This document shows, in pieces, positions 7,833 to 43,927 of a stretch of 64,000 nt of DNA. The notes beneath the pieces were generated by a model. That model had not been told where the DNA came from, ran no database searches, and saw only the letters and a list, made by a program, of their open reading frames with translations. This DNA is from the human T2T-CHM13v2.0 reference genome, Homo sapiens. Both the position numbers and the translations under genes were made by a program. How positions within the stretch are numbered: position 1 is the first letter of the stretch; every line of letters starts with the position of its first letter. The DNA lies in the NCBI RefSeq assembly GCF_009914755.1, contig NC_060928.1. One strand, given 5' to 3'.

Positions 7833-9258
7833 AAAAATCACATTATCTGATTACAAACTACACTATAAAGCCAATGTCAACAAAACAGCATGGCTCTTGT
7901 ATAAAAATAGGTGCATAGACCAACAGAACAGAATAGAGAACTTTGAAATAAAGCCAAATACAGCCAACTGATCTTTGACAAAGAAAACAAAAACATAAAG
8001 TGGGGAAAAGATACCCTATTGAACAAATGGTGCTGGGATAATTGACAAGCCACACATAGGAGAATAAAACTGGATCCTCATCTCTCACCTTATACAAAAA
8101 TCCACTCAAGATGGATCAAGAACTTAAATCTAAGACCTGAAACTACAAAAATTCTAGGAGATTACATTGGAAAGGCCCTTCTAGAGATTGGCTTAGGCAA
8201 ATATTTCATGACTAAGAACCTAAAAGCAAATGCAACAGAAACAAAGATAAATAGGTGGCACTTACAAGCTTTTGCATGGCAAAAGGAACAGTTAGCAGAG
8301 TAAACAGACAACCCACAGAGTGGGAGAAAATTTTCACAATCTATACATCTGACAAAGGACTAATATCCAGAATCTACAAGGATCTCAAACAAATTAGCAA
8401 GAAAAATACAAACAATCTCATCAAAAAGTGCGCTAAGGATATGAATAGACAATTTTCAAAAGAAGATATACAAATAGCCAACAAACATGAAAAAGTGCTC
8501 AACATCACTAATGATCAGGGAAATGCAAATCAAAACCACAATGCAATACCACCTTACTCCCGCAAGAATGGCCTTTATAAAAAAAAAAAAAAAAAAGATT
8601 TTGGTGCGATGCAGTGAAAAGGGAAAACTTTTACACTACTGATGGGAATGCAAACTAGTACAACCACTATGAAAAACATTGTGGAGATTACTTAAAGGAC
8701 TAAAAGTAGAACTACCGTTTTATCCAGCAATCCCACTACTGGTTACCTACCCAGAGGAAAAGAAGTCATTATACAAAAATATACTTGTTCATGCATGTTT
8801 ATAGCAGCACAATTTCCAATTGCAAAATGTAAAACCAGCCCAAATGCCCATCAACCAATGAGTGGATAAAGAAACTGTGATATATATGTATATATATGAT
8901 AGAATTCTACTCTACCATAAAAAGGAATGAATTAATGGTATTTGCAGCAACCAGGATGAAACTTGAGACTATTATTCTGAGTGAAGTAACTCAGGAATGG
9001 AACACCAGACATTGTATATTCTCACTCATTCATGGTAGCTAAGCTATGTGGATGCAAAGGCATAAGAATGATACAATGGATTTTGGGGACTTGATGGAGA
9101 AGGGTGCAAGGGGTAAAAGACTACAAATTGGGTTCAGCATATACTGCTTGAGTGACGTGTTTACCAATATATCACAAAACACCACTAAAGAACTTACTCG
9201 TGTAACCAAATACCACCTCTTCCCCAAAACCTATGGAAATTAAATTTTTTTTAAAAAA
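7833..9258 (+). mobile_element. 5'-truncated L1 (L1PB-like): ORF2 3' part and 3'UTR
   Basis: ORF 8255-8617 gives the ORF2 peptide [25 protein letters not shown]; 3'UTR ends CCCCAAAACCTATGGAAAT then an A/T tail. Confidence 0.9.
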
Positions 9259-24711: not shown

Positions 24712-25525
24712 TTTTATTTTTTATTTTGGATTCAGGTGGTACATGTTCAGGTTTGTTACATGGGGATATTGCATGATGCTAAGGTTTAGGCTTCTAATGA
24801 TTCTGTCGCCCCAGTATTGAACCTATGTTCAATACTGACAGGTAGTTTTTCCACCCTTAGCCTCCTCCTCTCTCCTTTTAGAGTCCCCAGTTTCTATTGT
24901 CCTCAACTTTGTGTCCATATTTACCTAATGTTTAGTTCCCACTTATAAGTAAAAACATTCAGTATTTGGTTTTCTTTTTATGCAATAATTCACTTAGGTT
25001 AATGGCCTCCAGCTACATTCATGTTGCTGCAAAAGACATAATTTTGTCCTTTTTTATGACCTCATAGTATTCCATGGCATATATGTACCACATTTTCTTT
25101 ATCCAGTACTCTGTTGATGGGCACCTGGGGCGATTCCTTGTCTTTGCTATTGTAAATTGTGCTGCAATGAACATACAAGCACAGGTGTCTTTTTGGTAAA
25201 GTAATTTATTTTCCTTTTGGTGTATACCCAGTAATGGGATTGCTGGGTCAAATGGTAATTTCAGTTTTCGTTTTTTGAGAAATCCTGAAACTGCTTTCTA
25301 CTGGGTCTAAACTAATTTGCATTCCCACCAAGACTGTATAAGTATTTCCTTTTCTCCACAACCTCCCCAACATCTGTTATCTTTTGACTTTTGAATAATA
25401 TCCATTCTTACTGGTATAAGACAGTATCTCACTGTGGTTTTGATTTGCATCTTTCTGAAGATTAGTGATGTTGACTTTTTTTTTCATGTTTGTTGACTGC
25501 TTGTATGTCTTCTTTTGAGAAGTGT
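24712..25525 (-). mobile_element. L1 3' end (L1PA13-16/L1PB-like) inserted in ERV pol
   Basis: T-rich tail, GGTACATGTTCAGGTTTGTTACATGG, CCCAGTAATGGGATTGCTGGGTCAAATGG. Confidence 0.9.
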
Positions 25526-26149
25526 GTGATTGATATTTGGAAGCAGTTTTGATAAGTTCATTTGAATTTTTATTGAAGTAGGTGAAACAATAGTTTATCA
25601 GTGGAGAACTTTGAACACAACTGATCAGACACTAAAATAGCAGGCTTTGTAAGTCTTCATTGCTTAATAATTCAGTGTCTTCAATGTCAAGATGAATAGT
25701 AATTGAATTAAATTTTGAAAAATTTTTGCTAAATTTTTTTGTTATGTCTGTTAACTCTGTTTTATCATTCATTAATTTTGTTTTGCCATTTGGATAATTT
25801 AATTCTAAATACATTTTCCCCATCTGCGAGTAAGAAATATGATTTTTACATAGTTCTAAATAGTCTCTTCCTATTAGCTGGATAGGGGCTGATGGAACCA
25901 AAAAGAAAACATGAATCCCCCATGTAGGGGACCTAGTGGGAAAGTTATAAACTTAGGTTTTTATGTTTTTATGCTGACATAGGAATATTTGTCACACCCA
26001 CCATTGAATCAAGTGTTTATAATAAAGACTGGGGCCTTGTAATAAGGTGGGATTTACTACAGAAAACATTGCCCCAGTGTCAATGAGGGCTTGGAATTGT
26101 TCCCCATTTAAAATAATTGTTATTTCTGTCAGAGTGTTAGTAAAAAGAA

Positions 26150-35520: not shown

Positions 35521-36395
35521 AGCATCACAAAGGGGGAACTATGAGAACACATTTAAGATAAGTGAAGATATGTATTGAATATAACACCAATTGCACATGC
35601 CACATAAAAACATGGACAAATAGCCTTGTAAGACATATGAATCATAACCTACCCCAATTATAACCCTTTCTAAGCAAACTGCTGCACCCACTGCTTTATA
35701 TCATAATTGTCTTATAGTCTGTTTGTGCTCCACTCCAAAGCCATAAAGACTGGACTAGCGATTAATACCTAAATCAATGATTTGGCAATTATTTTATGGT
35801 CTGCCAAAATAGAAAATTTATAACAGTTAAATTCTTTTTTACAAATTTCACCTGCAAGCCAGACTTTTGTCTCATATGAAAGGTCTGGGTCTGCCATTTC
35901 ATGATTTTTGTTGTATGTAACAAATAAGGAGAGAGAGGACATAATAAAGAAAGGTGAAGATAAAGAAACAGAAGAGAACAGAAAAGAAAAAGGGAATAAT
36001 GGATATGAGAAGAGAAGGAAAGAGGCAAATAGAAAGATAGGCTTGAACACACAGGATCTGAGATTTACAAAGCAGTGAGTGACTATGCTATACAGAGATG
36101 TAGAGCAGAAAGGAAGGCACCCAGCTAAGAAGATGAGGATGATGCACTCATTGTATCTGTGGAATAAGAAGTGGGCATGTAAAGATTGAGACCATGTAAT
36201 GTGAGAGAGCAAAAAAATGGCCCTGCCTACAGTGATCTCGTACTGGAAAGTTCTATTTAGAAGTTATTTTTCTGAGCGACAAAATGTAGAAGGCATCATA
36301 AAATATGAGGAATGGTGTTAACCCTTACTTGGTAATCAGTGTTCTTAATTGTGTTACGGGAAACACCCTAGAAGGTAATATAAAGCTTGTTTATT

Positions 36396-36697
36396 AGCAG
36401 GGTGCTGTGGCTCACACCTGTAATCCCTGCATTTTGGGAGGTCGAGGTGGGAGGATTGCTTGAGCCCATGAGATTGAGACCAGCCTTGGCAACAAAGTAA
36501 GACCTAGTCTCCACAGAAAAATTAAAAAATTAGCTGTGTGTAATGGTGCTCACCTGTAGTCTTAGCTACTTGGGAGATAGAGGCAGGAGGATCACTTGAG
36601 CCCAGGTCGGGCCTGCAGTGAGCCACATTCATACCACCAAACTTCAGCCTGGATGACAAAGTGAGACCCTGCATTCAAAAAGGGGAAGAAAAAAAAA
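36396..36697 (+). mobile_element. AluJ
   Basis: GGGAGGATTGCTTGAGCCC and GGAGGATCACTTGAGCCC; no matching 3' TSD. Confidence 0.9.
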
Positions 36698-36798
36698 TCT
36701 ACACATACTGACACAAAAAGGGAGATTAGGTTTAGTTTGGTTGATGACAGAATACAGTTTTTTCTAAGTATTGTCTCAGTCTCAATTAATTGTAGCTA
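36692..36798 (-). repeat. Inverted ~107-bp copy of 31687-31793
   Basis: Reverse complement aligns end to end (CAATTAATTGA.ACTGAGACAATACTTAGAAAAAA...CTGTCATCAACCAAACTA.ACCTAATCTCCCTTTTTGTG). Confidence 0.92.
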
Positions 36799-37087
36799 GC
36801 AGTTTATTTTGTTAATCATTTCAAAAAACCAGCTCCTGGATTCTCTGATTTTTTGAAGGTTTTTTTGTGTCTCTATCTCCTTCAGTTCTGTTCTGATCTT
36901 AGTTATTTCTTGTCCTCTGCTAGCTTTTGAATTTGTTTGCTCTTGCTTCTCTAGTTCTTTTAATTGTGATGTGAGGGTGTCTATTTTAGATCTTTCCTGC
37001 TTTATCCTGTGGGCATTTAGTGCTAAAATTTCCCTCTAAACACTGCATTTGCTGTGTCCCAGCGATTCTGATACGTTGTGTCTTTGA

Positions 37088-37236
37088 GAATAATGGATAT
37101 GCGAAGAGAAGGAAAGAGGCAAATAGAAAGATAGGCTTGAACAGACTGGATCTGAGATTTACGAAGCAGTGAGTGACTGTGCTAAGAGGAGGTTAGAGCA
37201 GAAAGGAAGGCATCCAGCTAAGAAGATCAGGAGATG
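37088..37236 (+). repeat. Direct ~150-bp copy of 35994-36144 inserted in L1 ORF2
   Basis: GAATAATGGATATG.GAAGAGAAGGAAAGAGGCAAATAGAAAGATAGGCTTGAACA...CCAGCTAAGAAGAT present at both places. Confidence 0.95.
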
Positions 37237-37671
37237 TTATCTTGTTGATCCAGAACACCATGGCATCCTCAAGGTCATACGGAAGTTCCTTCGAGGCACT
37301 GAATGTTGAGAAGTGCTTGACACTGGCCACCACCTTCTCAATGCTGATCATATCCATGGTATAGGCCATCATCAGGGCATCCACCATCACCATGTGGGCA
37401 CTCATCATTATGGGTGCACGACTGAGGTCAGACTCTGTCATGGGGGTTTCGTTACCCTCCATCACATAGATCTCTTTCCAGGCCAGGGCCTGGAAGACAG
37501 ACTGGTGTCCCAGTAAGGTGGCCACCTGGTCCCCTTTCAGAATAAGGCTGCAGATGTGGCAGTACAGCTCGCTGGACAGGAGAAGCTTGATAACAGGCAG
37601 CTTAATGTGCTCCTGCTCATATTGGTTGACGTAGAAAGGGTCTCTGAGGTCCTTGGGGATGTTATCTTGTT
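37233..37671 (-). pseudogene. CAMSAP1: CAMSAP1 retro-fragment (exons 2-3, intronless) with back-splice-junction sequence at both ends; probable circCAMSAP1-derived pseudogene
   Basis: Open frame DNIPKDLRDPFYVNQYEQEHIKLPVIKLLLSSELYC...SKELPYDLEDAMVFWINK matches the recalled CAMSAP1 N-terminal region; GATGTTATCTTGTT repeats at 37233 and 37658, 425 nt apart. Confidence 0.9.
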
Positions 37672-37811
37672 CAAGGGCACTACAGCTTGCATTGTGTATC
37701 AGGAGCAGAAATCCAGTCCCTTCTCACTCTAGTTGAGTATCAGTACATTCCACCAACAGGCACTATACACAGCCAGGAATATCAAAGATTCCAGGAATCC
37801 AGTTTATAGTC
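37664..37811 (-). pseudogene. ZNF483: Probable ZNF483 5'UTR and start-codon fragment fused to the CAMSAP1 piece
   Basis: ATG at 37692 reads MQAVVPLNK, matching the recalled ZNF483 N-terminus MQAVVPLNKMTAISPE; preceded by acceptor-like TTTCTTTCTGCAG|G at 37811. Identity rests on 9 codons from memory. Confidence 0.65.
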
Positions 37812-37820
37812 CTGCAGAAA

Positions 37821-37855
37821 GAAACCAATGACTGCAGTTTACAGTCATTGGTTTC
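37821..37855. other. Perfect 14-bp inverted repeat (fold-back) at the insert/L1 junction
   Basis: GAAACCAATGACTG (37821-37834) / CAGTCATTGGTTTC (37842-37855), 7-nt spacer. Confidence 0.95.
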
Positions 37856-40800
37856 AAAGAACTAATTTATTTCTGCCTTAATTTAATTATCTACCCAGTA
37901 GTCATTCAGGAGCAGGTTGTTCAATTTCCATGTAGTTTGTGGTTTCAAGTGAAATTCTTAATCCTGAGTTCTAATTTCATTCTGCTGTGGTCTGAGAGAC
38001 TGTTTGTTATGATTTCCATTCTTTTACATTTGCTGAGGAGTGTTTTACTTTCAATTATGTGGTCAATTTTAGATTAAGTGTGATGTGGTTCTGAGAAGAA
38101 TGTATATTCTGTTGATTTGAGGTCAAGAGTTCTCTAGATGTCTATTAGGTCTGCTTGGTCCAGAGCTGAGTTCAAGTCCTGAATATCCTTGCTAATTTTG
38201 TGTCTTGTTGATCTATCTATTATGGAAAGTGGGGTGTTAAAGTCTCCCACTATTACTGTGTTGGAGTCTAAGCCTTTTTGTAGGTCTCTAAGAACTTGCT
38301 TTATGAATTCGGGTGTTCCTGTATTGGGTGAATACATATTTAGGATAGTGAGCTCTTGTTGCACTGATCCCTTTACCATTATGTAATGCCATTCTTTGTC
38401 TTTTTTCATCTTTGTTGGCTTAAAGTCTGTTTTATCAGAGACTAGAATTGCAACCCCTGCTATTTTTGCTTTCCATTTGCTTGGTAAATATTACTCCATC
38501 CTTTATTTTGAGCCTGTATGTGTCTTTGCACGTGAGATGGGTCTCCTGAATACAGCACACCGATGGGTCTTGACTCTTTATCCAATTTGCCAGCCTGCAT
38601 CTTTTAATTGGGGCATTTAGCCCATTTACATTTAAGGTTAATATTGTTATGTATAAATTTGATCCTGTCATCATGATGCTAGCTGGTTATTTTGCACATT
38701 AGTTGATGCAGTTTCTACATAATGTCATTGATCTTTGTATTTTGGCATGTTTTTGCAGTGGCTGGTACTGGTTTTTCCTTTCTATATTTAGTGCTTCCTT
38801 CAGGAGCTCTTGTAATGCAGGCCTGGTGGTGACAAAATCCCTCAACATTTGCTTGTCTGTAAAGGATTTTTTTTTTTTTTCGCTTATGAAGCTTAGTTTG
38901 GCTGGATATGAAATTCTGGATTCAAAATTATTTTCTTTAAGAATGTTGAATATTGGCCACCACTCTCTTCTGGCTTGTAGGGTTTCTGCAGAGAGATTGC
39001 TGTTAGTCCGACGGGCTTCACTTTGTGGGTAAGTTGACATTTCTCTCTGGCTGCCTTTAACATTTTTTCCTTTGTTTCAACCTTGGTGAAGCTGACGATT
39101 ATGTATTTTGGTGTTGCTCTTCTCAAAGAGTATGTTAGTGGTCTTCTCTTTACTTCCTGAATTTGAACATTGACCTGCCTTGCTAAGTTGGGGAAGTTCT
39201 CCTGGATAATATCCTGAAGTGTGTTTCCAATTTGGTTCCATTCTCCCCGCCATTTTCAGGTACACCAATCAATCATAGATTTGCTCTTTTCACATAGTCC
39301 CATATTTCTTGAAGGCTTTTTTTTGTTCCTTTTTATTCTTTTTCCTCTAATCTTGTCTTCACGTTTTATTTCATTAAGTTTATCTTCAATCTCTGATATC
39401 CTTTCTTCTGCTTGATCAATTTGGCTATTGATACTTGTGTATGCTTCACGATGTTCTTGTGCTGTGTTTTTCAGCTCCATCAGGTCGTTTATGTTCTTCT
39501 CTAAACTAGTTATTCTAGTTAGCAATTCCTCCAAGATTTTTTCAAAGTTCTCAGCTTCCTTGCATTGGGTTAGAACATGCTCCTTTAGCTTGGAGGAGTT
39601 TGCTATTACCCGCCTTCTGAAGCCTACTTCTGTCAGTTCATCAAACTCATTCTCCGTCCAGTTTTGTTCCTTTGCTGTTGAGGAGTTGTGATCCTTTGGA
39701 GGAGAAGAGGCATTCAGGTTTTTGGAATTTTCAGCATTTTTGTGATGGTTTTTCCTCGTCTTCATGGATTTATCTAACTTTGATCTTTGATGCTGAGGCC
39801 CTTTGGATGGGGTTTTTCCATGGGCGTCTTTTTTGTTGATGTTGATGTTGATGTTGATGTTATTACTTTCTGTTTGTTAGTTTTCCTTCTAACAATCAGG
39901 TCCCTCTTCTGCAGTCTGCTGGAATTTGCTGGAGGCCCACTCCAGATCTGTTTGCCTGAGTATCACCAGCGGAGGATGCAGAACAGCAAAGATTGCTGCC
40001 TGCTCCTTCCTCTGGAAGCTTTGTCCTAGAGGGGAATTCACCAGATGTCAGCTGGAGCTGTTGTTGGCCCCCACCGGGAAGTGTCTCCCAGTCAGGAAGC
40101 ACAGGGGCCAGGGACCCACTTGAGCAGGCAGTCTGTCCGTTAGCAGGGCTTGAGCGCTGTGCTGGGAGATCCACTGCTCTCTTCAGAACTGGCATGAAGG
40201 AACATTTAAGCCTGCTGAAGCTGTGCCCACAGCCGCCTCCTCCCTCAGGTGCTTTGTCCCAGGGAGATGGGAGTTTTATCTCTAAGCCCCTGACTGGGGC
40301 TGCTGCCTTTCTTTCAGAGACACCTGGGCTCTGCTCAGTCCGAACTTCCCAGTAGCTTTGCTTACACTGTGAGTGGAAAACTGCCTACTTAAGCCTCAGA
40401 AACGGCGGACGCCCCTTCCCTCAAGAAGCTCCAATGTCCCAGGTTGACTTCGGACTGCTGTGTTGGCAGCAAGAGTTTCAAGCCAGTGGATCTTAGCTTG
40501 CCAGGCTCTGTGGGGGTGGGACCCACTGAGGAAGACCACCTGGCTACCTGGCTTCCACCCCCTTTTCAGGAGAGTGACTTGTTCTGTCTTGCTGGGGTCC
40601 CAGGCACCACTGAGGTATGAATAAAAACTCCTACAGCTAGCTTGCTGTTTGCTCAAATGGCAGTACAGTTTTGTGCTTGAAACCCAAGGCCCTGGTGGTG
40701 TAGGCACCCAAGGGAATCTCTTGGTCTGAGAGTTGCAAAATCCATGGGAAAAGCATAGTATCTGGGCTGGATAGCACCACCCCTCATGGCACAGTCCCTC

Positions 40801-41931
40801 ACAGCTTCTTTTGGCCAGGGGAGGGAGTTCCCTGAGCCCTTGCACTTCCCAGGTGAGGCAACGCCCCACCTTGCTTTGGCTTGCCCGCCATGGGCTGCAC
40901 CCACTGTCCAACCAGTCTCAATGAGATGAACAGGGTACCTCAGTTGGGAATGCAGAAATCACCTGCCTTCTGCATTGGTCTCCCTGGGAGCTGCAGACCG
41001 GAGCTGTTCCTATTCAGCCATCTTGCCTGGAACTTCTACTTTTATCTTCAGAAGCAATAAAAACAACAACAACAAAAAGAAATTATATCAATTTAAATAT
41101 TAAAAGAGGTGATGAATTTTTAAATAATGACAGAAAACTGAGTTGCCAGACAGGAATACTTACTGAAACATATGTACTAGAAATTCTATATTTGAAAGAA
41201 AATTTTTGTGCTTAGTTTTTCTAAAAATTATTCTTTATATTGGTGGTTTTTAAATACCTACTTTAACATGGACACATAGAAAATAATTTTACACATAATT
41301 GATATCTAGCAATCAAAACATTTTACAATTAACATTTTAAGAATATCACTATTAACATTTTAACAGCTTTGAAAATTACCTCTATGCATTTTTCCTTCCG
41401 TAAATCTAAGACATCATTTCATTTTAATTATAAATTATTCAGTATGTATTCCTAAGAGATACAATATTTTTTACAGTAACCTCAATGCTATTATATGCCT
41501 GATATGATTAAAATGCATCTTTATTATCACCTAAATCCATATCATGTTTATATTTTCCAGTTATCTCAAAAATGTCTTTTTAAAGTATTTTGGTTTAAAT
41601 TGAAAAGTGTCCATCAGTTGCATTCAGTTAATATCTCTTAACTTCTTAAAATTGATAATTTTTATTTTTAAAGTAGTTTTTTACATGTTATTTGCTAGTC
41701 CTGTGGAATTAGCCATCAACTTTGAGCTGTAGAATTTTCTATATCTTTAATTTGGCACCTCTATTCCTCATGATATTATTTACATTTTTACTCTATCTCT
41801 CATGTATTCAGTATACGGTACTTTTAGAGACTTGCTTAGACTCAAGATTAAGTTTTTTGGCAAGACCACATTATAGCTGGAGCTGTGGAATTGTTAATAT
41901 AACACTAGGAAGTACATAAGTTCTGGCTGTC

Positions 41932-42864: not shown

Positions 42865-43297
42865 CAGTTGATGCTTGAACAACACAGGTTTGAACTGTGG
42901 AGATACATATGTATGTGAATTTTCTTCTGCCTCTGCCAACCTTGAGACAAGATCAACTTCCTCCTCCTCCTCGGCCTACTTAAAGTGAAGACAATGAGGA
43001 TGAAGATCTTCAAAATTATTCACTTTCACTTAATGAATAGTAAATATATTTTCTCTTCCTTACAGTTTTCTTAATAACATTTTATTTCCTCTAGCTTACT
43101 TTGTTGTAAGAATACGGTAGATAATAAATAGAACACAGAAAATATGTGTTTATTAAGTGTTTATGATATTGTTAAAGCTTCTGATCAATAGCAGGCCATT
43201 AACAGTTAAGTTTGGGAGTAGTCAAAAGTTAAATGTTCATTTTTGACTGTGTGAGGGGCTGATGCCCCTAAGTCTCACATTTATTAAGGGTCAACTG
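42865..43297 (+). mobile_element. Tigger2a (MER28)-like TcMar DNA transposon
   Basis: TIRs CAGTTGATGCTTGAACAA / TTATTAAGGGTCAACTG followed by TA; 433 bp; GAAGACAATGAGGATGAAGA core. Confidence 0.85.
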
Positions 43298-43927
43298 TAT
43301 TAGATATGTTTTATTTTAAAATAGTCAAATTATTTTTTCATTATATTAATCCTATTTATACTAATTTGCATACTTTTATAATGCATCTAGTAATAGTAAT
43401 ATTATATGTAATTAAATGAGCACATATCACTTTGATACAAACAGGATTATGAGTAAATATAACTGATTCTTGTTAAGCATTGACCTTTATTTTTATGGCA
43501 AGTTTAAGGACATACAACGACTACCTAAAGAGCTTCAAACATTTTACGAAGGGAATGGAAAGCATCATTTAAGAAAATGATACAGATAACTGCAGTTCCT
43601 GAAGAGAACTTCTACTCTCTTTTAGTTAGTAGGGATAATTTCTATCATTACCTACACCCAAATGATTCTGCATTTATTCCAGCCTTCTTTTTGACTTTCA
43701 TTAGAGTTTAATAGTAATCCTCAGTCAAGTTCTGTAAATTTTAGGTTAAATTTACTCCTGGTGTTTTAAAGTGCAATTGTTAGCATAGATGGTATCTATA
43801 TTTCCATTACACTTTAGGGAAAATATTGACCTTTTCACACTACTTTTTTAGCCAGACAAAATATTAACCTCCAGTTAAGAAATGCTTTCATATGAATTTA
43901 CTAGACAATCTCTAAATCTAACTATAT

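What the first reader, a model, noticed from the sequence alone, without database searches (positions are those of the whole stretch)
37087..37844. Four-part mosaic patch (local DNA + circCAMSAP1 cDNA + ZNF483-like piece + hairpin) inside L1 ORF2, with no TSD or poly(A)
Seen: L1 stops at ...GTTGTGTCTTTG (37086) and resumes at TCATTGGTTTCAAAGAAC (37845). Against the recalled consensus only ~3 nt are lost and nothing is duplicated. The ~760 bp between comprise a copy of 35994-36144, the CAMSAP1 circle, a second gene-like fragment and a fold-back. Internal joints show microhomology (GATG; AACAAGAT). Both gene pieces share the L1's polarity. Inference: this is not standard target-primed retrotransposition. 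It looks like break repair in which a polymerase/RT (L1 ORF2p without endonuclease, or Pol theta) hopped between nearby DNA and cellular RNAs, including a non-polyadenylated circle. That would offer a route for circRNAs to enter the genome without a poly(A) tail.
Basis: partly seen in the sequence, partly recalled or inferred. Interest (0 to 1): 0.88.

Follow-up and report, generated by a model that had tools for sequence, protein, structure and literature searches.

The report
Circular-RNA copy patching a broken chromosome
A known human pseudogene copied from a circular RNA turns out to be the middle of a 758-base patchwork insert that likely sealed an ancient DNA break in one step, a rare fossil of how tail-less circular RNAs may enter the germline genome.

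Summary
A 758-bp insert (37087-37844) splits an L1 with 3 bp lost, no target-site duplication and no poly(A). It holds a copy of DNA 1.1 kb away, 427-439 nt of the 425-nt CAMSAP1 exon 2-3 circle, 157 nt of the first SCAN-coding exon of ZNF483, and a fold-back built from the L1 end and the ZNF483 piece. The circle copy is already published (Dong 2016, circCAMSAP1 pseudogene on chr4, mechanism called mysterious). The other parts were not found in print in my searches. The joints interlock (8-nt microhomology, chance 2e-4; the hairpin copies both neighbours), so one event is likely. The patch looks younger than the host L1 (3.1-3.7% vs 5.9% per branch, p 0.02-0.001). Best reading: repair of a break without L1 endonuclease, in which a reverse transcriptase (L1 ORF2p favoured, Pol theta possible) hopped between templates, ran just over one lap of the circle, and end-joining finished the job. 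The enzyme is untested, RNA origin is shown only for CAMSAP1, and no ape orthologue could be read. A new variant of templated break repair, n=1.

The parts
36785..37086 (-). Host L1, ORF2 fragment left of the break; the element is 3'-truncated at about 36780-36807
   Evidence: blastn to five L1-bearing loci; left limit in 29 copies
37087..37087 (+). One base not matching the local donor (untemplated, or a later substitution)
37088..37236 (+). Direct-orientation copy of window 35994-36144
   Evidence: 7 of 144 non-CpG sites differ
35994..36144 (+). Donor of the local copy, intact, 1.1 kb from the break, downstream of the truncated L1 3' end
37233..37236 (+). 4-nt microhomology GATG shared by local donor (with a 1-nt gap before it) and CAMSAP1 exon 2 start
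37233..37671 (-). circCAMSAP1 copy: in sense, 6 nt exon 3 end, exon 2 (37403-37665), exon 3 (37241-37402), 8 nt exon 2 start; back-splice junctions at 37240/37241 and 37665/37666; 427 nt if both microhomologies are given away, 439 nt if kept, circle = 425 nt
   Evidence: span of the source equals the published hg19 circle span, 1446 nt
37664..37671 (-). 8-nt microhomology AACAAGAT shared by the circle's back-splice junction and ZNF483 (13 of 15 over a longer stretch)
37664..37820 (-). First 157 nt of the SCAN-coding exon of ZNF483, ending exactly at an AG splice acceptor; no splice junction inside
37821..37834 (+). Fold-back arm: inverted copy of 37842-37855, 11 nt of which are the L1's own right-hand end
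37835..37846 (-). 12-nt second copy of the ZNF483 exon start (matches the gene, where the main piece has one substitution); overlaps the L1 end by 2 nt
   Evidence: 3 of 5000 shuffles reach 12 nt
37845..41026 (-). Host L1 right of the break: ORF2 start, ORF1 and 5' end

Best explanation
The insert is a circRNA-derived pseudogene flanked by a local copy, a ZNF483 exon piece and a fold-back, and it is likely the scar of one germline double-strand-break repair in an older L1, probably written by L1 ORF2p reverse transcriptase without its endonuclease and probably finished by Pol-theta-type end joining. Inferred order (window + strand = first strand): the left broken end primed on the local donor (sister or nearby duplex DNA, or a read-through RNA of the host L1) and copied 149 nt; it switched through GATG onto circCAMSAP1, 4-8 nt from the back-splice junction; it copied one full lap and a little more, running into its own start; it left through the 8-nt match to ZNF483 RNA and copied 157 nt to the exon start. 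Meanwhile the right broken end made an aborted 10-nt extension on the ZNF483 cDNA, snapped back on itself to copy its own end, and was joined to the cDNA. Shown: parts, joints, 3-nt loss, back-splice junction, more than one lap, no TSD or poly(A). Inferred: single event, order, RNA origin of the non-CAMSAP1 pieces, the enzymes. The product is most likely a neutral scar.
For: 3-nt loss in 29 of 29 comparisons; no TSD, no poly(A). Intron-less exons with back-splice junction and at least 427 of 425 nt need reverse transcription of a closed or tandem template. 8-nt microhomology: 46 of 212,500 random junctions between these two templates reach it. The hairpin copies both the ZNF483 piece and the L1 end, tying them to one break. 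The three pieces are equally diverged from their donors (7/144, 25/388, 7/156 non-CpG; heterogeneity p 0.60) and pooled look younger than the host L1 (28/752 or 28/908 vs 116/1965; Fisher p 0.022 or 0.0012). All pieces share cDNA polarity, the pattern ascribed to template-switching RT (PMC11702581). ORF2p is processive, copies RNA and DNA, uses 5-10 nt primers and jumps templates (PMC10830420); RT inhibitors cut templated insertions at induced breaks over threefold (PMC5110952). Pol theta makes inverted-repeat insertions by stem-loop extension from 2 bp (PMC11292364).
Against: No sequence feature names the enzyme; Pol theta also reverse transcribes RNA, including 16S rRNA in vitro (PMC8195485). 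The ZNF483 piece has no splice junction, so a DNA template is not excluded; it lacks the circZNF483 junction. GATG is only 4 nt (about 2% by chance in the table, made for another template pair) and needs a 1-nt gap; if it is given to the local donor only 4 nt past the left back-splice junction are circle-specific. There is no microhomology at the L1/local joint, and TTTC is present twice at the hairpin/ZNF483 joint, so a clean microhomology join is not seen there. The age gap is not significant for the CAMSAP1 non-synonymous sites alone (14/308, p 0.43) or for ZNF483 if the gene branch is zero (p 0.59), and the host figure may include subfamily differences. The experimental multi-RNA insertions of PMC11702581 carry TSDs and poly(A), unlike this one. 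No primate orthologue was read.
Confidence: 0.55

Rival explanations
1. Same single break-repair event, but Pol theta did all the synthesis, on DNA and RNA alike, with no retroelement enzyme.
For: Fold-back plus aborted 10-12 nt templated extension is the Pol theta signature; microhomology at the switches; Pol theta has RT activity (PMC8195485 passages).
Against: Continuous tracts of 149, about 435 and 157 nt with no indel in the 425-nt circle or the ZNF483 piece, whereas Pol theta insertions are described as short and its cDNA showed indels.
Confidence: 0.17
2. The ZNF483-circCAMSAP1 chimeric cDNA was made away from the chromosome (primed by a short RNA or DNA) and captured ready-made at the break by end joining; only the local copy and the hairpin were made on site.
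For: ORF2p makes cDNA off the chromosome from short primers; captured cDNA is one reading of class 2 insertions; weakest joint is local/circle (4 nt).
Against: The local copy sits at the priming end of the cDNA and overlaps the circle by a microhomology, which fits priming from the extended chromosome end.
Confidence: 0.15
3. The patch arose during the insertion of the host L1 itself: one endonuclease-independent L1 insertion whose RT left the L1 RNA, copied three other templates and came back 3 nt further on.
For: The host L1 lacks its 3' half, poly(A) and a detectable TSD; all parts share its polarity; CAMSAP1 non-synonymous divergence alone does not differ from the host's (p 0.43).
Against: Pooled patch divergence is lower than the host's; return within 3 nt after 758 nt is simpler for a broken duplex; the hairpin copies the right-hand L1 end, which must have existed as DNA before the join.
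Confidence: 0.08
4. The parts arrived in separate, nested insertions at different times.
For: Point estimates of divergence differ a little (4.5-6.4%).
Against: No heterogeneity (p 0.60); no TSD around any part; microhomology and the hairpin interlock neighbours.
Confidence: 0.04
5. Assembly artefact or cDNA contamination.
For: None found.
Against: Pieces differ 4.5-9% from their donors with CpG decay (12 of 17 CpGs changed); reported in hg19, all human populations examined, chimp and gorilla (PMC4897178 Fig. S1 legend).
Confidence: 0.01

Closest known systems
circCAMSAP1-derived pseudogene, Dong et al. 2016 (PMC4897178; whole text and Fig. S1 legend read, figures and Table S1 images not seen)
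   Same: Almost surely this locus: human chr4, exons 2-3 of CAMSAP1, short overhangs past both back-splice junctions, RT proposed to pass the junction twice; my genome search finds only this one exon 2-3 copy. Coordinates on chr4 were not visible to me.
   Different: The text I read does not mention the L1 host, local copy, ZNF483 piece, hairpin, microhomologies or break repair, and calls the mechanism mysterious. The exon 3 overhang it counts as a second pass is also ZNF483 sequence. Its legend gives 8 nt of exon 3 and 6 nt of exon 2; I count 6 and 8.
Class 2 templated sequence insertions (Onozawa and Aplan, PMC5110952; parts 1-2 of 4 read) and endonuclease-independent L1 RT at breaks (Morrish 2002, seen only as cited there and in PMC9237045 passages)
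   Same: No TSD, no poly(A), microdeletion, microhomology, distant spliced template.
   Different: Three templates plus a fold-back in one scar; one template is circular and copied more than once round; reported as present in all human populations examined, not polymorphic.
Complex ORF2p insertions in cells (PMC11702581; passages and one section read)
   Same: Two RNAs in the same orientation with microhomology, plus nearby genomic DNA and inverted copies at the reciprocal end.
   Different: Those carry poly(A), endonuclease sites and TSDs; none circular in the passages read; somatic and experimental.
Pol theta templated insertions (PMC11292364; passages read)
   Same: Short direct and inverted copies of break-adjacent sequence, stem-loop extension.
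   Different: Explains only the last 24 nt readily; the long RNA-templated tracts are outside the usual pattern.
L1 chimeric insertions with other RNAs (bioRxiv 10.1101/2025.02.02.635956; passages read, supplements closed)
   Same: RNA pieces in L1 polarity, template switching proposed.
   Different: Those are RNA fused 5' to an L1 3' end within TSDs; here the pieces interrupt an L1 internally. CAMSAP1, ZNF483 and circRNA do not occur in its main text.

Membership tests
circRNA-derived pseudogene (Dong 2016) | Non-colinear back-splice exon junction | tested here: met
   8 nt of exon 2 start follow exon 3 end; exon 4 starts differently
circRNA-derived pseudogene (Dong 2016) | Intron-less exons confined to the circle | tested here: met
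   exons 2 and 3 only, intron absent
circRNA-derived pseudogene (Dong 2016) | Parent circle is expressed | not testable with these tools
   No RNA data; a published table lists a CAMSAP1 circle whose 1446-nt span equals the exon 2-3 span here
circRNA-derived pseudogene (Dong 2016) | Few or no 3' adenosines | tested here: met
   longest A or T run 3
Processed pseudogene by target-primed RT (class 1 insertion) | Target-site duplication | tested here: not met
   3 nt lost, nothing duplicated
Processed pseudogene by target-primed RT (class 1 insertion) | Poly(A) tail | tested here: not met
Processed pseudogene by target-primed RT (class 1 insertion) | Insertion at a TTTT/A endonuclease site | tested here: not met
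   the site in other L1 copies has no TTTT/A on either strand, judged by eye
Class 2 templated sequence insertion | No TSD or poly(A); microdeletion at the site | tested here: met
Class 2 templated sequence insertion | Template from a distant locus, donor intact | tested here: met
   two chr9 donors present
Class 2 templated sequence insertion | Microhomology or untemplated bases at joints | tested here: met
   8 nt and 4 nt inside, 2 nt at the right L1 end, 1 unmatched base at the left
Class 2 templated sequence insertion | Polymorphic among humans (for the TSIP label) | not testable with these tools
   No population data; Dong et al. report it in all populations examined, so it works like a class 2 insertion but is probably fixed
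Pol theta templated insertion | Short direct or inverted copies of break-adjacent sequence | tested here: met
   14-bp fold-back and 12-nt copy
Pol theta templated insertion | Final join through a single-copy microhomology | tested here: inconclusive
   TTTC occurs twice at the hairpin/ZNF483 joint
Pol theta templated insertion | Dependence on POLQ | not testable with these tools
   fossil event
RNA/L1 chimeric retrogene (U6/L1 type) | Foreign RNA fused 5' to an L1 3' end, all within one TSD | tested here: not met
   pieces interrupt an L1 that continues on both sides; no host TSD found

The most novel reading that the evidence does not exclude
This is a fossil of a general tail-independent route: at a chromosomal break, endonuclease-free ORF2p primes on circular RNAs through a few bases of microhomology, rolls past one lap by displacing its own cDNA, and hops on. 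All three templates were RNA: a read-through transcript of the host L1, circCAMSAP1, and a ZNF483 RNA that may itself have been the circle whose acceptor marks the end of the piece. Other circRNA pseudogenes in mammals would then prove to be break patches.
Probability: 0.25. Interest if true: 0.72.

Novelty: new variant of a known kind. Interest (0 to 1): 0.52.

Why it matters
The paper that defined circRNA-derived pseudogenes left their mechanism open, since L1 retrotransposition needs a poly(A) tail that circles lack. This locus, one of its two named human examples, carries junction-level evidence for an answer: entry as a break patch by microhomology priming and template switching. That makes the question directly testable (Cas9 break plus abundant circRNA, with ORF2p RT or POLQ removed) and gives a prediction for the other known cases. 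It also refines the published double pass of the back-splice junction: that junction served as the exit microhomology. Limits: one old, probably neutral event; the core pseudogene and the repair classes are known.

Tried and rejected
Linear CAMSAP1 mRNA as template: rejected, exon 4 does not begin with the bases that follow exon 3. Hairpin region as an upstream ZNF483 exon or circZNF483 junction: rejected; the best suffix followed by GT in 7 fetched ZNF483-region loci was 5 nt, and the last exon of the reported circle ends in other bases. Left and right L1 halves as different elements: considered because the left half had fewer private changes (9/272 vs 107/1693, p 0.052), rejected because 282-nt bins of the right half range 4.3-8.7% against 3.9% and one copy (chr11:120786360-926) is among the 40 best for both halves with a 3-nt gap. 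TSD of the host L1: none found. PDB hits of the translated insert to designed beta-propellers are repeat-summed noise. Selection on the open CAMSAP1 frame: rejected, 20 non-synonymous changes. The codon table was misregistered by one base and was redone; only the microhomology table is used. Earlier scan findings were not open. Paper searches for the composite structure found no description; subscription papers, Dong's figures and Table S1 images, and bioRxiv supplements were not visible.

Full report
Observation. The window lies at chr4:33.17-33.23 Mb of the human assembly (hub note). A minus-strand L1 runs from about 36785 to 41026, with its 5' end present and its 3' half missing. It is split between 37086 and 37845. 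In 29 of 29 other L1 copies fetched (the loci cut from the 40 best-scored matches, self excluded) exactly 3 bases lie between the matching points. The 758-nt insert has no A or T run over 3 and the flanks share no word over 5 nt.

Parts. (1) 37088-37236 copies 35994-36144 in direct orientation; no other donor was found in the genome. (2) 37241-37665 is two exons of 263 and 162 nt from chr9:148.11 Mb joined without their intron. The translation hits the CAMSAP calponin-homology family, and the genomic span of the two exons, 1446 nt, equals that of a published CAMSAP1 circle. Eight bases of the exon 2 start follow the exon 3 end, and six bases of the exon 3 end precede exon 2. Exon 4 starts and exon 1 ends with other bases (both exons identified by splice signals and reading frame), so the first is a real back-splice junction. 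With both microhomologies given to the neighbours, 427 nt remain circle-only, still more than the 425-nt circle; with them it is 439 nt. (3) 37664-37820 matches chr9:123698652 onwards, 7 mismatches in 156, the start of a SCAN-domain exon. The piece stops exactly at the AG acceptor and holds no splice junction. (4) 37821-37834 is an inverted copy of 37842-37855, the only perfect hairpin of that size in the window (z -8.9). New here: 37835-37846 is a second, 12-nt copy of the ZNF483 exon start, identical to the gene where the main piece has since mutated (3 of 5000 shuffles).

One event. ZNF483 and the circle's back-splice junction share 8 exact bases at their joint, 13 of 15 over a longer stretch, against 4 exact with the linear exon 1-2 junction; 46 of 212,500 random junctions between these templates have 8 or more. 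The hairpin is made from the ZNF483 piece and the right-hand L1 end, so both were at the break together. The local/circle joint is weaker (4 nt, one gap), and the L1/local joint has no microhomology. Non-CpG divergence from donors is 7/144, 25/388 and 7/156, homogeneous (p 0.60).

Age. Host-private changes against 29 copies are 116 of 1965 non-CpG columns (5.9%). The patch branch is 28/752 to 28/908 (3.7-3.1%), counting the local pair as two branches, only non-synonymous CAMSAP1 sites, and the ZNF483 gene branch as zero or equal; Fisher p 0.022 and 0.0012. CAMSAP1 alone (14/308) does not differ from the host (p 0.43). So the patch is probably, not certainly, younger than the L1. With the recalled yardstick of about 3% per branch for the human-macaque split, it dates near or somewhat after that split, older than 'very recent', which is compatible with the reported absence in rhesus.

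Mechanism. All pieces read as first-strand cDNA on the window's + strand, from the left broken end rightwards. The exit from the circle comes 2-14 nt after one full lap, as expected if the enzyme stalled on meeting its own cDNA start and left by the next microhomology (inference). A direct-orientation copy from the same side cannot come from fold-back of the resected end; it needs duplex or sister invasion, or a minus-strand RNA, which the host L1, with its promoter end and no 3' end, could have made by read-through (inference). The right end shows iterative short synthesis: 2-nt priming on the ZNF483 cDNA, 10 nt added, snap-back, 14 nt of self-copy, join. L1 ORF2p fits the long tracts: processive, active on RNA and DNA, short primers, template jumping (PMC10830420 passages), works at breaks without its endonuclease (PMC9237045 passages), and makes same-orientation two-RNA inserts with local DNA in cells (PMC11702581). 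Pol theta fits the hairpin (PMC11292364 passages) and can reverse transcribe (PMC8195485 passages). I put ORF2p plus end joining at 0.55, Pol theta alone 0.17, capture of a ready-made cDNA 0.15, a wandering L1 insertion 0.08.

What is known. Dong et al. 2016 (PMC4897178; whole text; Fig. [quoted passage not shown] As my search finds one such copy in the genome, it is almost surely this locus. The scar meets the sequence features of class 2 templated insertions (PMC5110952, parts 1-2 of 4) and fails those of target-primed retrocopies. Searches, and a term search of the L1 chimera preprint, found no account of the ZNF483 piece, local copy, hairpin or a break-repair origin; subscription papers and unseen figures or supplements could hold one.

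Unexplained. Three of the four RNA-side breakpoints lie at or within 8 nt of a splice site: circle entry, circle exit and the ZNF483 end. Exit follows from entry if the run is lap-limited. The ZNF483 end is also the only TTTC in the first 170 nt of the exon, matching the hairpin's end, but the motif is present twice in the scar. A ZNF483 circle apparently using this acceptor is reported (PMC4872085 passages and supplement row), yet its junction is not in the insert.

Verdict. Real, accurately described, partly known. The core is a published circRNA pseudogene; the surrounding anatomy turns it into a junction-level example of circRNA capture by break repair, a new variant of a known kind. Interest 0.52.

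Noticed in passing
window 36780-41026: The host L1 keeps its 5' end but stops inside ORF2, with no poly(A) and no TSD found; either a later deletion or an endonuclease-independent insertion in its own right.
   Followed up: partly
window 37233-37241, 37664-37671, 37820: Circle entry, circle exit and the end of the ZNF483 piece all fall at or within 8 nt of splice sites; the 12-nt copy also starts right after a second AG 9 nt into the exon.
   Followed up: partly
window 37241-37663, minus strand: The CAMSAP1 frame has no stop or frameshift over 141 codons, but 20 non-synonymous changes; the ZNF483 frame runs into it out of frame and stops.
   Followed up: yes
window 37817-37824: A 4-nt motif is doubled at the ZNF483/hairpin joint; it may be a single microhomology duplicated by slippage then or later.
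   Followed up: partly
window 36394-36697: An Alu lies between the local donor and the L1's truncated end, so the donor-to-break distance may have differed when the patch formed.
   Followed up: no
window 7837-9029, 24910-25536, 42918-43300: Older L1-like fragments, about 70-75% identical to the fetched loci.
   Followed up: no
window 39834-39861: A 6-nt tandem repeat, 4.7 copies, inside the host L1.
   Followed up: no
PMC4897178 Fig. S1C legend vs window 37233-37240 and 37666-37671: The published overhang lengths (8 nt exon 3, 6 nt exon 2) are the reverse of those counted here (6 and 8).
   Followed up: yes
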